NCBI RefSeq assembly: GCF_056746865.1
Contig: NZ_JBWKMP010000005.1
Length of the DNA stretch: 64,000 bases
Source: a plasmid
Reading direction: 5' to 3' (one strand)
The first letter of the stretch is position 1; each line of letters starts with the position of its first letter. Positions 18,001 through 21,000 of the stretch are shown here, piece after piece. Position numbers: made by a program.

Positions 18001-21000
18001 TATTTGCTCCCATGTATAATATTTCTTTGCTTCAAGTATATTTTGCAAATACATATTGAAGACAGCCTGTTTTGATTTCGATTTTGTTTCGTTTATAGCC
18101 TCGCATATTGGAGATAATAAACTCTCGATCTTTTTCATTTGTTACATTTCCTCTCTCTCTCTACCTCCTACATTGGCATAATACCTTATTTAAAGCAATT
18201 TGCTCGCCGTTTGTGTGGGTGATTATGTGGGTTGTTTTGTGGGTTGTCAATGGGGTTGTGGTCTTTTTTGTGGGTTAAAGTGTGGGCGATTGTGTGGGCT
18301 GTGTGTTTTGAGTTGTGGGTGATTATGTGAGTCATTGTGTGGGCTGTATGCACGGCATTTTTTTGTTCTGCTAAAACACAGGCACGATACCGATTGTACA
18401 CAAGACCGTTCCGGTCATGTTACAATCGTGTGCCAAAGGGGGACGCCCCTTTGAAACCCCGAACGATGCAGCCGTTCTTATGCGGTTCTACGAACCTTGA
18501 GGACATATGAAGAAAAAAACCAACAAAAACGTTCATGTAACATTCAGACTTACCGAAGAAGAATATGCTCCGTTCGATAGGGCTATAAAAGAGCTTAATA
18601 TTAGTAAGTCTGAATTTTTCAGGCTGCTTACTATTGGTAAAATAAACACATATGCATCTGATAAACGTAACATACCAGAATACAAACGTTGTCTTTCTCA
18701 GTTGAGTTGGGCAGGAAACAACATAAATCAAATAGCGCACCGATTAAATTCAGATCATTTAAAAGGTATTATATCAGAATCGCTTTATAAAAAGGTTTTA
18801 AATGGACTAATCGGTATTCGTGATCGCCTTCAGGAGATAGCTAAATGATTGTCAGATACGGTGGTGGTAATGATGGTATCGTTGATTATCTGATAAATGG
18901 TCGCAAAGCAGAACGCCAGTACACGCGTGATGAACTTGATCATCGTGTTGTTCTTGATGGTGATTTACAGACTACAGATAAGATTATTGATTCTATTGAA
19001 AACAAAAGTCAGGAACGTTATTTGCACATTACTCTGTCTTTTCATGAAAGTCATGTGTCGAATGAAGTGTTAAAGGCTGTTGTTGATGATTATAAAAAAT
19101 TATTGATGAATGCTTATCATCCTGATGAATACTCTTTTTATGCGGAAGCTCATTTGCCTAAAATTCGTCATATCCAGGATAATAGCACTGGTGAACTTGT
19201 TGAAAGAAAACCACATATTCATATTGTAATTCCTAAAGTAAATTTGATTACTGAAAAGTTCCTAAATCCAGTGGGAGATGTTACCAAAGGGCATACAATT
19301 GAACAGCTTGATGCTATACAGGAATTTATTAATAATAAATATAATCTTGATAGCCCTAAAGACTATCCGCGTAAAGATGCGGATTACGGAAAAATTATAA
19401 GTAGAGTTAAGGGGGATCTTTACAAAGAGCATCACTCTGAATTGAAAGGTGAGTTGCTTTCGCGTATAGAGAACGAGAAAATTGAAAATTACTCTGTATT
19501 CAAAGATATTGTTGCAGAGTATGGTGAACTTCGTATAAGAAATGCTGGTAAAACCAATGAGTATCTGGCTGTAAAATTGCCTGGAGATAAAAAATACACA
19601 AACTTAAAAAGTCCTCTTTTTCGTCAGAATTACATTGAGACAAGGACATTAACACTTGAGAAACCAACACACAAAGAGATAGAAAAGAGACTTAATACCT
19701 GGTTAAATAAAACAAGCCATGAGATTAAGCATATTTTTAACCAGGCGGAGAAAACAAGGGAACTTTACAAGACATTAAGCCCTTCACAACAAATTGATTT
19801 CCTGCAAGAGAGGATAAAAGAATATGACTCAAGAGAAAAACTTAACGAAAGAAATTCTCAGCAAACGTCAGGACGAGCGGGAGGTTACAAGTCGTGTCCT
19901 AAAAAGTTTGCCAGAATCCGTCAATCTGAAGCAACAGTCGGATTGTCACGTATGCCCCAACGCGGTATGGTTTACGGAATCAATGGATTCACAAGACCCG
20001 ACTCTATCAGTGTATTGTCAGATATTTCGCAGCGTGATCTGGCAGAGCAATTACCGCAAAGAGAACATCCTGGTCAGGATGTGCGACGGGATTATGATAG
20101 ACAATTCACAGAGTCAGGAATAAAAAGTCTTGAACGCTCTTCTTTTTTGTGTGAAACGATGTTTCAGACTCTGAATGAGGCGGCAGAGAAAAACGAAATT
20201 ACAACGATGGCAGAAATTCGCAGAAATATTGATCCTGTCAGGTTTCTGTCTTCTGCCGCCGAGCGTTTTAATATTATTCCAGCGCAGCATAAAATCAGAA
20301 CAGCAAAGGACGGCTCCCCCCGGTTTTCTGTGGGGAATCGTAATATGAACGCATCTGATTTTCTGACAAAGCATATTAATCTTGCCTGGAAAGATGCGAA
20401 ATCCTTTCTGCTTGAAGTTTATTCACAGCAGTTAGAAAACACGCCATATACGCGCTATCCAACCTACAGACGCCTTACGCATCATGAAGCCCGTGAGCGT
20501 CTTAACTCACTGAATTTATCGGAAAAAACATTACGAAATACTATCAGGTTTGAGCGTGGCAAGCTGTATAATGATCTGCGAGAGATGAGACGCGAGTTGA
20601 AGTTAATACCACGTGAACAGCGTGATATTGCCGTGGGTGTGATTGTTTACAAAAAACTAACCACACTTGAGCGTCTTTCTGAACTCGACACAGAGGGGCG
20701 ACACATAATTCGTCAATATCATGCTGACTGGCATAAGGATAAAGATGAAATGAAAGCCCTTGAACGTCTCAAAAGCTATCTCAACTTCGATGAAATCAAC
20801 GCCATTTCTGCTGACGAACCCGAACTTTCGCTTCAGAAAGCGGTGGATTCCCAGCGCCGCTTAGAAGAGGCGAAAAAGGTTAACTCCAAACTAAAAGATC
20901 TTGTGATGGATAAGCAGGATTCCAGGATTGTTTATCGCGATCAGGAATCGGAAAAGCCTGTCTTTACCGACAAAGGGAACTTTGTCGTTGCGGGTAAAAA

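What the first reader, a model, noticed from the sequence alone, without database searches (positions are those of the whole stretch)
18150..18500. oriT candidate with a TGTGGG(T) repeat array and palindrome between divergent relaxosome genes
Seen in sequence: roughly ten TGTGGG(T)-containing repeats (18210-18345) and the palindrome CAAAGGGG-ACG-CCCCTTTG (18434-18453) lie immediately upstream of nikA. Inference: accessory-protein binding sites and the nick region.
Basis: partly seen in the sequence, partly recalled or inferred. Interest (0 to 1): 0.4.

Follow-up and report, generated by a model that had tools for sequence, protein, structure and literature searches.

The report
IncI2 plasmid transfer origin region
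This is the transfer origin of a common colistin-resistance (mcr-1) IncI2 plasmid: an R64-like nicking core next to a row of twelve short repeats that most likely bind the neighbouring StbA/TraK-like protein, an ordinary but so far undescribed layout for this plasmid group.

Summary
There are 8 exact and 4 near-exact TGTGGG units with a 12-bp period at 18214-18343, all on the + strand. The 8-bp palindrome lies at 18434-18453, 53 bp upstream of a NikA-like gene. The window is an IncI2 mcr-1 plasmid.

In 13 related plasmid lineages an array sits at the same place. Its motif and period follow the N-terminal domain of the divergent 133-aa StbA/TraK-like protein. They do not follow NikA/MobC, the relaxase or the core. 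Natural hybrids with identical MobC carry different arrays.

The array is therefore best read as an stbS-like or TraK-site-like operator and nucleoprotein site. It overlaps the leader-operon promoter.

The palindrome is not the nick region. It corresponds to the nikA-proximal 8-bp inverted repeat of R64 oriT. The likely nick region is the invariant 5'-CGTGCCT-3' on the minus strand (18386-18380). It flanks a covarying 38-nt inverted repeat (18391-18428).

The 99-bp core occurs in 824 plasmid records. These include 2-kb plasmids with only a rep gene that carry core plus array.

This is a new member of known kinds, of modest interest. Nicking and protein binding are inferred, not shown.

The parts
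18210..18345 (+). Direct-repeat array: about 12 units of consensus nATTnTGTGGGy with a 12-bp period. Three sub-arrays start at 18214/226/238/250, 18269/281/293 and 18314/326/338, with offset degenerate units at 18257 and 18302. Proposed binding array (stbS-like / TraK-site-like) for the adjacent 133-aa protein.
   Evidence: covariation with the neighbouring protein
18222..18250 (-). Sigma-70-like promoter of the leader operon inside the array: -35 TTGACA (18250-18245), 17-nt spacer, -10 CATAAT (18227-18222), 11 of 12 matches. The TTGACA (TTGACG in L019) recurs between sub-arrays in relatives L005, L009, L017, L020 and L002.
   Evidence: sequences
17737..18138 (-). 133-aa StbA/TraK-like protein, the counterpart of YciA of R721. 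It has a helical N-terminal domain (residues 1-76) and a disordered tail. Some records mis-name it 'zinc transporter'.
   Evidence: Guynet 2011 PMC3098194
16967..17719 (-). TraL-type (StbB-like) P-loop ATPase, second gene of the leader operon.
   Evidence: NCBIfam TraL NF010461 E 1e-53; Pfam CbiA/ParA
16258..16989 (-). 243-aa third gene of the leader operon, in the position of StbC/TraM. No family assignment.
18380..18386 (-). Invariant heptamer 5'-CGTGCCT-3' (read 18386 to 18380 on the minus strand). Proposed nick region, with nic predicted at or next to CGTG|CC|T, 8-10 nt 3' of the inner inverted repeat.
   Evidence: invariant in 12 lineages; same position as CATCCTG|T of R64-type oriT; mosaic junctions of L014 and L002 fall in 18370-18389
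18381..18434 (.). Long imperfect inverted repeat. Outer stem GGCAC (18381-18385) pairs with GTGCC (18430-18434). Inner arms are CGATTGTA (18391-18398) and TACAATCG (18421-18428). Apical stem is GACCG-TTC-CGGTC. Proposed NikA/relaxase recognition hairpin of the transferred strand.
   Evidence: compensatory changes at 9 of 21 pairs; hairpin predicted in most of the 10 sequences folded; z -3.2 to -7.4
18434..18453 (.). It is the counterpart of the nikA-proximal 8-bp repeat of R64 oriT. Stem sequence is nearly invariant, loop is variable.
18461..18477 (.). Small inverted repeat GAACG-N7-CGTTC in the nikA leader. It is absent from the relaxase-less small plasmids, so probably dispensable in cis.
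18484..18496 (.). Palindrome GGTTC-TAC-GAACC just before the nikA ribosome-binding site. It is conserved in enterobacterial relatives, including the relaxase-less plasmids L002 and L011. Candidate protein site (NikA?) and right edge of the cis-acting region.
18397..18426 (+). Promoter-like site for nikA-relaxase inside the inverted repeat: TACACA, 18 nt, TG-TACAAT, 9 of 12 matches.
   Evidence: weak consensus match only
18507..18848 (+). NikA/MobC-type ribbon-helix-helix relaxosome accessory protein (113 aa).
   Evidence: Pfam NikA-like E 2.9e-11, MobC E 9e-7; annotated mobC
18845..23158 (+). 1437-aa relaxase, typed MOBP by MOB-suite, with an LPD7 domain.

Best explanation
The interval 18139-18506 is the transfer origin of an IncI2 plasmid, and it is built from two modules.

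(1) Core (about 18365-18496). It has the same layout as R64 oriT. Reading the minus strand away from nikA, the order is an 8-bp GC-rich hairpin, a long inverted repeat, then an invariant CGTGCCT block. By inference, the NikA-like RHH protein binds the repeat and helps the relaxase nick the minus strand in or next to CGTGCCT (18380-18386). The strand would then be transferred 5'->3', so that the array and the stbA-like/traL leader operon enter the recipient first and nikA-relaxase last. The hairpins in the transferred strand would serve termination.

(2) Array (18210-18345). Twelve direct repeats of 12 bp lie between nic and the divergent operon. By inference from covariation, they are bound cooperatively by the N-terminal helical domain of the adjacent 133-aa StbA/TraK-like protein. 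Because the array covers the operon's -10/-35 elements, binding should autorepress the leader operon. It should also build a nucleoprotein complex next to nic. Together with the TraL/StbB-type ATPase, that complex would position or prepare oriT for transfer. This is what R388 StbA-stbS and RP4 TraK do.

Shown here: the sequence features, their conservation and covariation, and the gene families. Inferred: protein binding, the nick position, and the roles in transfer versus segregation.
For: Identity: the segment 17700-19200 around the finding is 100% identical to IncI2 mcr-1 plasmids.

Core:
- The 105-bp query (18366-18470) spanning most of the core matches 824 plasmid records from Escherichia, Salmonella, Pseudomonas, Edwardsiella, Pantoea and others.
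- In the loci inspected that carry a relaxase, it lies between a mobC/nikA-LPD7 relaxase operon and a divergent small gene.
- Across 12 lineages CGTGCCT and TTTGGCAC are invariant or nearly so. The inverted repeat between them keeps pairing through compensatory changes at 9 of 21 pairs.
- Most of the 10 minus strands folded give the same two hairpins (L002's long repeat does not, in the minimum-energy fold). All have z from -3.2 to -7.4, and no shuffle folded as well.
- A true IncI1-type oriT shows the same order: nikA, then 8-bp inverted repeat, 17-bp inverted repeat, then CATCCTG.

Array:
- It is statistically extreme.
- All 13 lineages have an array in the same place, but motif and period differ with the N-terminal domain of the adjacent protein. 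The N-terminal domain falls into two sequence types, called type 1 and type 2 here.
- Type 1 (window, L020, L005/L003, L009, L017, L018, L019) gives TGTGGG, TGTGTG, TGTACG, TGTGYCC or TGTAGT at about 12 bp.
- Type 2 (L007/L014, L013, L008) gives GCTATG at 11 bp.
- L004 gives TGCCGTT at 11 bp and L010 gives GTGCGT at 10 bp.

Natural swaps:
- L014 has the same MobC accession as the window type but the L007-type StbA-like gene, and it carries the GCTATG array.
- L020 has L005's MobC and core but a StbA-like protein 90% identical to the window's, and it carries the TGTGGG array with the same spacing as the window.
- The array does not follow the ATPase partner type, TraL versus StbB.

Protein:
- A family profile hits the solved StbA DNA-binding domain 7pc1 at E 1.5e-4.
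- The AF2 model has a confident helical domain at residues 1-76.
- YciA_R721 was linked to StbA/TraK by PSI-BLAST, and the Stb-MOB synteny of R721 was noted in PMC3098194.

Other:
- A promoter lies inside the array.
- 2,096-bp ColpVC plasmids with only rep carry array plus core.
Against: - No experiment here shows nicking or binding.
- The nick block TATCGTGCC departs from the MOBP consensus YATCCTG|Y, and the exact nic cannot be resolved within about 18371-18386.
- CGTGCC is also the 3' arm of the outer stem, so its invariance could reflect pairing or duplex recognition rather than the cleavage site.
- In R388 the stbS array is needed for stability, not for conjugation, so the array may not be part of oriT in the functional sense.
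- No extra TGTGGG pairs occur at other promoters in this window, unlike the R388 stbDRs.
Confidence: 0.65

Rival explanations
1. The TGTGGG repeats are binding sites of the relaxosome accessory protein NikA/MobC, and the palindrome CAAAGGGG...CCCCTTTG is the nick region.
For: The array and the palindrome both lie in the nikA upstream region. RHH proteins of other systems, such as F TraY and TraM, bind repeated sites (PMC9282650).
Against: Plasmids with the identical MobC accession carry unrelated arrays: window versus L014, and L005 versus L020. The palindrome lies on the nikA side of the long inverted repeat, where R64 has its 8-bp repeat and not its nick region. Its loop varies in sequence and length. 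The invariant block lies on the other side of the long repeat.
Confidence: 0.07
2. The array is purely a centromere and operator for plasmid segregation and leader-operon control by the StbA-like protein, as stbS is in R388. It has no cis role in DNA transfer and merely neighbours oriT.
For: In R388, stbS is required for stability but not for conjugation (bioRxiv 10.1101/2022.04.29.490116; PMC3098194). The promoter sits inside the array. The Edwardsiella small plasmid L011 carries the core without any array.
Against: The multicopy 2,096-bp ColpVC plasmids have only a rep gene and no obvious need for a centromere, yet they keep the array next to the IncI2-type core. In RP4, the homologous TraK complex forms between nic and traK at the transfer origin (cited). 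IncI2 also has a separate ParA/MipZ-like ATPase gene near repA. None of this is decisive.
Confidence: 0.22
3. The array is a set of replication iterons (oriV), or an intrinsically bent or simple-sequence spacer with no specific protein partner.
For: Short direct repeats with a period of 11-12 bp are typical of iterons. T-runs lie between units.
Against: The array is 13 kb from repA in the IncI2 record. It keeps its place next to the stbA-like gene across replicon types typed as IncI2, IncX4, IncFII and IncU, and in untyped plasmids. Its motif changes together with the adjacent protein, which a protein-free spacer would not do.
Confidence: 0.03
4. The repeats encode a His/Thr-rich peptide: the minus-strand ORF 18186-18401, 71 aa.
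For: An open frame spans the array.
Against: It has a GTG start and is not annotated in any record inspected. Relatives have 11-bp or 10-bp periods, which cannot conserve a reading frame. The frame is open simply because the unit lacks stop codons.
Confidence: 0.01

Closest known systems
R64 (IncI1) oriT with NikA/NikB
   Same: The order of elements is the same. nikA-nikB are read away from oriT. On the nicked strand come an 8-bp GC-rich inverted repeat, a long inverted repeat with an ATTGTA...TACAAT core, then a short conserved block ending in G|C/T-C. That block is partly complementary to the sequence 5' of the repeat. The accessory protein is NikA-like.
   Different: The nick block is CGTGCCT rather than CATCCTG. 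The relaxase is a 1437-aa LPD7-type protein, not IncI1 NikB. R64-type oriT has no direct-repeat array and no stbA/traK-traL operon beside it. Overall DNA similarity is too low for BLAST.
R388 (IncW) stbS / stbDR array with StbA-StbB-StbC
   Same: Both are arrays of about ten short direct repeats in sets, with roughly one helical turn per unit. Both lie over the promoter of a three-gene operon that diverges from the relaxase operon next to oriT. The first gene is a small protein with an N-terminal HTH and the second is a ParA-like ATPase.
   Different: The motif is TGTGGG at 12 bp in three sets, versus TTGCATCAT at 11 bp in two sets of five. The ATPase is TraL-type (KGGxGKS), not StbB-type. Sequence homology of the window's protein to StbA is marginal. 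No extra repeat pairs were found at other promoters.
RP4/RK2 (IncP-1) oriT with TraJ-TraI and the TraK-TraL-TraM leader operon
   Same: Relaxase and leader operons diverge around oriT. The inverted repeat lies about 8 nt from nic on the strand that leads into the leader operon. TraK binds the stretch between nic and traK (cited in PMC3098194). The second gene is a TraL homologue.
   Different: As far as I know, the RP4 TraK region is not a regular repeat array. The nick consensus ATCCTG|C is met only approximately.

Membership tests
MOBP-type oriT core (R64/RP4 pattern) | Lies directly upstream of an RHH accessory gene followed by the relaxase gene | tested here: met
   NikA-like/MobC ORF at 18507 and relaxase at 18845
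MOBP-type oriT core (R64/RP4 pattern) | Long inverted repeat followed about 8 nt later by the nick region, on the strand leading away from the relaxase operon | tested here: met
   Inverted repeat at 18391-18428. The invariant block starts 3-4 nt and ends 10 nt 3' of it on the minus strand. The same order is seen in IncI1-type L016.
MOBP-type oriT core (R64/RP4 pattern) | Nick-region consensus YATCCTG|Y | tested here: not met
   The window has TATCGTGCC, one mismatch. Relatives have TAACGTGCC, TCTCGTGCC or TCACGTGCC. The family invariant is CGTGCCT.
MOBP-type oriT core (R64/RP4 pattern) | Site- and strand-specific nicking by the cognate relaxase; cis-acting in mobilisation | not testable with these tools
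   The only evidence is indirect. Deletion of a predicted oriT in pHNSHP45 abolishes conjugation (PMC11878559; coordinates not available). Rep-only small plasmids carry the core.
StbA-stbS / TraK-type leader module | Array of short direct repeats with about one helical turn per unit, over the promoter of the operon that diverges from the relaxase operon | tested here: met
   About 12 units at 12 bp, with the promoter inside
StbA-stbS / TraK-type leader module | First gene encodes a StbA-family protein (N-terminal HTH domain as in PDB 7pc1) | tested here: inconclusive
StbA-stbS / TraK-type leader module | Second gene encodes a StbB/TraL ParA-like ATPase | tested here: met
   NCBIfam TraL E 1e-53. 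Relatives carry either TraL or StbB.
StbA-stbS / TraK-type leader module | The protein binds the repeats specifically | not testable with these tools
   Only covariation of motif with the N-terminal domain type across 13 lineages, plus three natural module swaps
Iteron-type replication origin | Repeats adjacent to and co-varying with a Rep initiator gene | tested here: not met
   repA lies 13 kb away. The same array position is kept across different replicon types.

The most novel reading that the evidence does not exclude
The repeat array may be a portable, helper-specific 'address' that acts in cis during mobilisation. By recruiting the helper plasmid's StbA/TraK-like protein and TraL/StbB ATPase, it would decide which conjugative plasmid can efficiently deliver a given oriT to its secretion system. 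Tiny rep-only plasmids would have captured core plus array, and sometimes a second IncI1-type oriT, to parasitise IncI2 helpers. Exchange of the array/leader module at the nick region would re-wire these dependencies.
Probability: 0.25. Interest if true: 0.55.

Novelty: new member of a known kind. Interest (0 to 1): 0.3.

Why it matters
IncI2 plasmids are the main vehicles of mcr-1 colistin resistance. Their oriT has been located only by prediction and a single deletion. A dissected map gives precise targets for mobilisation assays, for oriT typing tools and for anti-conjugation strategies. That map comprises the core, the probable nick block, the StbA/TraK-type array and the promoter. The analysis also explains how rep-only small plasmids and alternative leader modules plug into the same relaxase system. 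The biology follows the R64, RP4 and R388 paradigms, so a specialist would not be very surprised.

Tried and rejected
- Foldseek of the AF2 model against the PDB gave no significant match.
- A profile of type-1 proteins alone found no solved relative.
- phmmer of the relaxase N-terminus against the PDB found nothing.
- An Rfam scan of 17000-19500 gave only chance-level hits.
- The supplement of PMC11878559, which should give the deleted oriT coordinates, is not held.
- Furuya & Komano 1997 is not held, so the exact R64 nick position rests on my own knowledge.
- R388 (BR000038) is not in the plasmid collection.
- Literature searches for an IncI2, IncX4 or MOBP6 nick site found none.
- The TTAGATGGA array of the 3.6-kb plasmid L012 is not found beside any other core. 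It is therefore no evidence for array mimicry and may be that plasmid's own iterons.
- I tried to pin nic from mosaic junctions. The L014 junction maps to 18370-18373 and the L002 junction to 18389 or lower. Both fall in the conserved nick block but do not resolve the position.
- The iteron and peptide-coding readings of the array were rejected (see rival explanations).
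Full report
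WHAT IS THERE

The interval 18139-18506 is a 368-bp intergenic region.

- To the left, on the minus strand, lie three genes. These are a 133-aa ORF (17737-18138), a 250-aa P-loop ATPase (16967-17719; NCBIfam TraL, E 1e-53) and a 243-aa ORF.
- To the right, on the plus strand, lies a 113-aa ribbon-helix-helix protein (18507-18848; Pfam NikA-like 2.9e-11, MobC 9e-7). It is followed by a 1437-aa relaxase with an LPD7 domain.
- The segment 17700-19200 is 100% identical to IncI2 mcr-1 plasmids such as pFORC_081_2, typed IncI2 / MOBP / MPF_T.

THE OBSERVATION

- TGTGGG occurs eight times exactly between 18214 and 18343, always on the + strand. Fifteen further copies are scattered over both strands of the other 64 kb.
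- No other 150-bp window has more than one copy. In 2000 local shuffles the maximum was 3.
- Including one-mismatch units at 18250, 18257, 18302 and 18326, there are about 12 units of consensus nATTnTGTGGGy. The period is 12 bp.
- The units form three sub-arrays that make a higher-order unit of about 44 bp.
- The palindrome CAAAGGGG / CCCCTTTG is at 18434-18441 / 18446-18453, with a 4-nt spacer GACG.

THE CORE

A 105-bp query (18366-18470) covering most of the core matches 824 plasmid records. About 284 of them are only 60-90% identical. They come from E. coli, Salmonella, Pseudomonas, Edwardsiella, Pantoea, Erwinia and others.

In every locus I opened that carries a relaxase, the core lies between a mobC/nikA plus LPD7-relaxase operon and a divergent small gene. 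The relaxase-less small plasmids are described below.

An alignment of 12 lineages, read on the minus strand, shows these elements:
- GGGTT, then the AAAGGG...CCCTTT hairpin;
- a nearly invariant TTTGGCAC;
- a long inverted repeat whose sequence varies;
- an invariant T-N-N-CGTGCCT.

RNAalifold finds compensatory changes at 9 of 21 pairs. They are concentrated in the apical stem, for example GACCG/CGGTC, GCCCG/CGGGC, AAAAC/GTTTT and GGGG/CCCC.

Most of the ten minus strands folded as ssDNA give the same two adjacent hairpins (L002's long repeat does not form in the minimum-energy fold). All have z-scores from -3.2 to -7.4, and no shuffle folded as well. Conserved pairing with free sequence argues for a structure in the transferred single strand, or for a symmetric recognition site.

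COMPARISON WITH R64

A genuine IncI1-type oriT (pSTM2, beside IncI1-type nikA/nikB) reads, away from nikA, as follows:
- GTCGGGG-CGAA-GCCCTGAC, the 8-bp inverted repeat;
- GCAATTGTAATAGCGTC...GACGGTATTACAATTGC, the 17-bp inverted repeat;
- ACATCCTGTCCCG.

The IncI2 core has the same order and orientation relative to nikA, and even shares an ATTGTA...TACAAT kernel. In both, the conserved block after the repeat is partly complementary to the bases 5' of the repeat.

The R64 core is defined as 'nick region and repeat A' (PMC4743918). From my own knowledge (Furuya & Komano 1991, not readable here), R64 is nicked at CATCCTG|T, 8 nt from the repeat, as in RP4 (ATCCTG|C).

By position, the IncI2 nick should therefore lie in or next to 5'-CGTG|CC|T-3' on the minus strand (18386-18380).

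The strict MOBP consensus is not met: the window has TATCGTGCC. The nick position is an inference.

With a minus-strand nick, the array and the leader operon would enter the recipient first. This fits the ssb and topoisomerase genes on that side in the Pseudomonas relatives.

THE ARRAY

All 13 lineages examined have a direct-repeat array in the same slot, between the nick block and the divergent gene. The unit differs between lineages.

I call the two sequence forms of the adjacent protein's N-terminal domain type 1 and type 2. Identities below are for the N-terminal 80 aa compared with the window protein.

Type 1 N-terminal domain:
- window: TGTGGG, 12 bp.
- L020, E. albertii (90% identical): TGTGGG, 12 bp, with the same 12,12,31,12,12,21,12 spacing as the window.
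- L005/L003, typed IncX4 (60-61%): TGTGTG(TC), 12 bp.
- L009, Pantoea (47%): TGTGTGC, 12 bp.
- L017, Edwardsiella tarda (45%): TGTACG, 12 bp.
- L018, Aeromonas (42%): TGTGYCC.
- L019, Y. pestis pJARS36 (31%): TGTAGT.
- L004, Providencia (25%; grouped with type 1 but very distant): TGCCGTT, 11 bp.

Type 2 N-terminal domain:
- L007/L014 (an IncI2 variant), L013 (Citrobacter) and L008 (P. aeruginosa): GCTATG, 11 bp.

Other:
- L010, P. syringae (annotated 'TraK family'): GTGCGT, 10 bp.

Three natural swaps separate the candidate partners.
1. pE566-mcr-1.1 (L014) has the same MobC accession as the window type and a 100% identical core from 18371 rightwards. It carries the L007-type 159-aa gene and the GCTATG array.
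2. L020 and L005 share the same MobC accession and core type but have different StbA-like proteins. Their arrays are TGTGGG and TGTGTG respectively.
3. The chimeric proteins show that the array follows the N-terminal domain, not the C-terminal part or the ATPase partner. L009 combines a type-1 N-terminus with a StbB-type C-terminus and a StbB partner. L008 combines a type-2 N-terminus with a TraL partner.

This is what is expected if the N-terminal domain of the adjacent protein reads the repeats. It excludes NikA/MobC and the relaxase as the readers.

THE PROTEIN

- Pfam and NCBIfam do not recognise the window's 133-aa protein. Type-2 relatives hit NCBIfam StbA_2 weakly, at E 2e-6 to 1e-4.
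- A profile of nine family members hits the solved DNA-binding domain of R388 StbA (7pc1) at E 1.5e-4. A type-1-only profile does not.
- hhalign of type 1 against type 2 plus StbA gives E 2.9e-9 over full length. That value is inflated by the chimeric L009. On N-terminal domains alone it gives only E 9e-4 with probability 23%.
- AlphaFold predicts a confident five-helix domain at residues 1-76 and a disordered tail.
- Guynet et al. 2011 had already linked YciA_R721 to StbA and TraK by iterated PSI-BLAST. They drew the Stb-MOB synteny for R721. They also noted that MOBP6 plasmids carry either the TraL-type or the StbB-type ATPase. That is the dimorphism I see among IncI2 plasmids.
- I therefore treat the protein as a probable distant StbA/TraK homologue and a clear positional analogue.

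MECHANISM

A strong sigma-70-like promoter for the leader operon lies inside the array: TTGACA, 17 nt, CATAAT, 11 of 12 matches, on the minus strand at 18250-18222. The TTGACA recurs between sub-arrays in type-1 relatives (TTGACG in L019).

Binding should therefore autorepress the operon, as StbA does at PstbA. It should also form a multi-protein complex next to nic, as described for R388 StbA/stbS and RP4 TraK.

Whether the array contributes to transfer or only to segregation and regulation is open. In R388, stbS is needed for stability and not for conjugation. IncI2 also has a separate ParA/MipZ-like gene.

The 2,096-bp ColpVC plasmids argue for a cis role in transfer. Their only gene is rep, and they carry an IncI1-type oriT plus, in inverse orientation, the IncI2-type core with a nearly identical TGTGGG array that is one 12-bp unit shorter. 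A multicopy plasmid has little need for a centromere.

The Edwardsiella 5.6-kb plasmid argues the other way: it carries the core alone.

The right edge of the cis-acting region is probably the palindrome GGTTC-TAC-GAACC (18484-18496). It is kept in the relaxase-less plasmids, whereas the hairpin at 18461-18477 is deleted there.

MODULE BOUNDARY

In pE566-mcr-1.1, the switch from L007-like to window-like sequence falls at 18370-18373. In the ColpVC plasmid, the switch from window-like to another core type falls at or before 18389. Both junctions lie inside the conserved nick block. That is consistent with exchange at or near nic but does not resolve its position.

WHAT IS KNOWN

- The IncI2 oriT is routinely predicted with oriTfinder.
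- Deletion of a region predicted by analogy with R64 abolished conjugation of pHNSHP45 (PMC11878559).
- In the searchable literature I found no description of the repeat array, of its link to the StbA/TraK-like gene, or of a mapped nick.

VERDICT

This is a real, functional-looking oriT region made of two known kinds of module: an R64/RP4-type core and a StbA/TraK-type repeat array. It is a new member of known kinds, of modest interest.

Noticed in passing
L002 (NZ_CP140407, 2096 bp) 1541-1626 and 1786-2045: Tiny ColpVC plasmids whose only gene is rep carry two oriTs in inverse orientation. One is IncI1/R64-type, 94% identical to IncI-complex plasmids. The other is IncI2-type and includes the TGTGGG array. 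Dozens of Salmonella and E. coli records appear to be of this kind.
   Followed up: partly
L014 (pE566-mcr-1.1) and L007 versus window 18139-18375: The IncI2 population is dimorphic for the whole leader module. One form has a 133-aa protein, TraL and the TGTGGG array. The other has a 159-aa protein, StbB and the GCTATG array. The exchange point lies inside the nick block at 18370-18373.
   Followed up: yes
window 23253-24253: An IS30-family (ISApl1-like) transposase gene just downstream of the relaxase is split into two ORFs by a frame change near 23760. This is either a frameshift mutation or a sequencing error. The 100%-matching reference pFORC_081_2 has mcr-1 directly after the relaxase, without this element.
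   Followed up: partly
window about 21170-21580 (within the relaxase gene): The relaxase contains about 16 tandem copies of an acidic hexapeptide ATEQ(E/A)Q. The corresponding DNA repeat leaves long spurious ORFs open on the opposite strand.
   Followed up: no
L012 (NZ_CP075859, 3.6 kb) 1850-1985: A small E. coli plasmid has the oriT core next to about ten 11-bp TTAGATGGA repeats and no stbA-like gene. That array was not found beside any other core in 72,556 plasmids, so it may be the plasmid's own iterons.
   Followed up: partly
L018 (Aeromonas salmonicida pAsmC, 12.4 kb) 1085-1500: This plasmid has a stbA-like gene with a TGTGYCC array and a duplicated, degenerate nick block (AGGCACGA twice), but no relaxase gene nearby. 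It may be a decaying or helper-dependent oriT.
   Followed up: no
window 17737-18138: Several GenBank records annotate the 133-aa StbA/TraK-like protein as 'zinc transporter'. Nothing found here supports that name.
   Followed up: partly
window 15470-16277: Two adjacent minus-strand ORFs (115 aa and 159 aa) in the presumed leading region share a nearly identical N-terminal stretch of about 45 aa (TTFTDDDK.LIKEIRERIGSLDVRDNIERRAYEIALASLEA). This points to a local gene duplication.
   Followed up: no
window 18343-18368: A small hairpin (GCTGT-ATGC-ACGGC) followed by a run of seven T lies between the array and the nick block. It scores as terminator-like on the + strand, but no gene reads into it. 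Its role is unknown; it could be a bend or a host-factor site.
   Followed up: no
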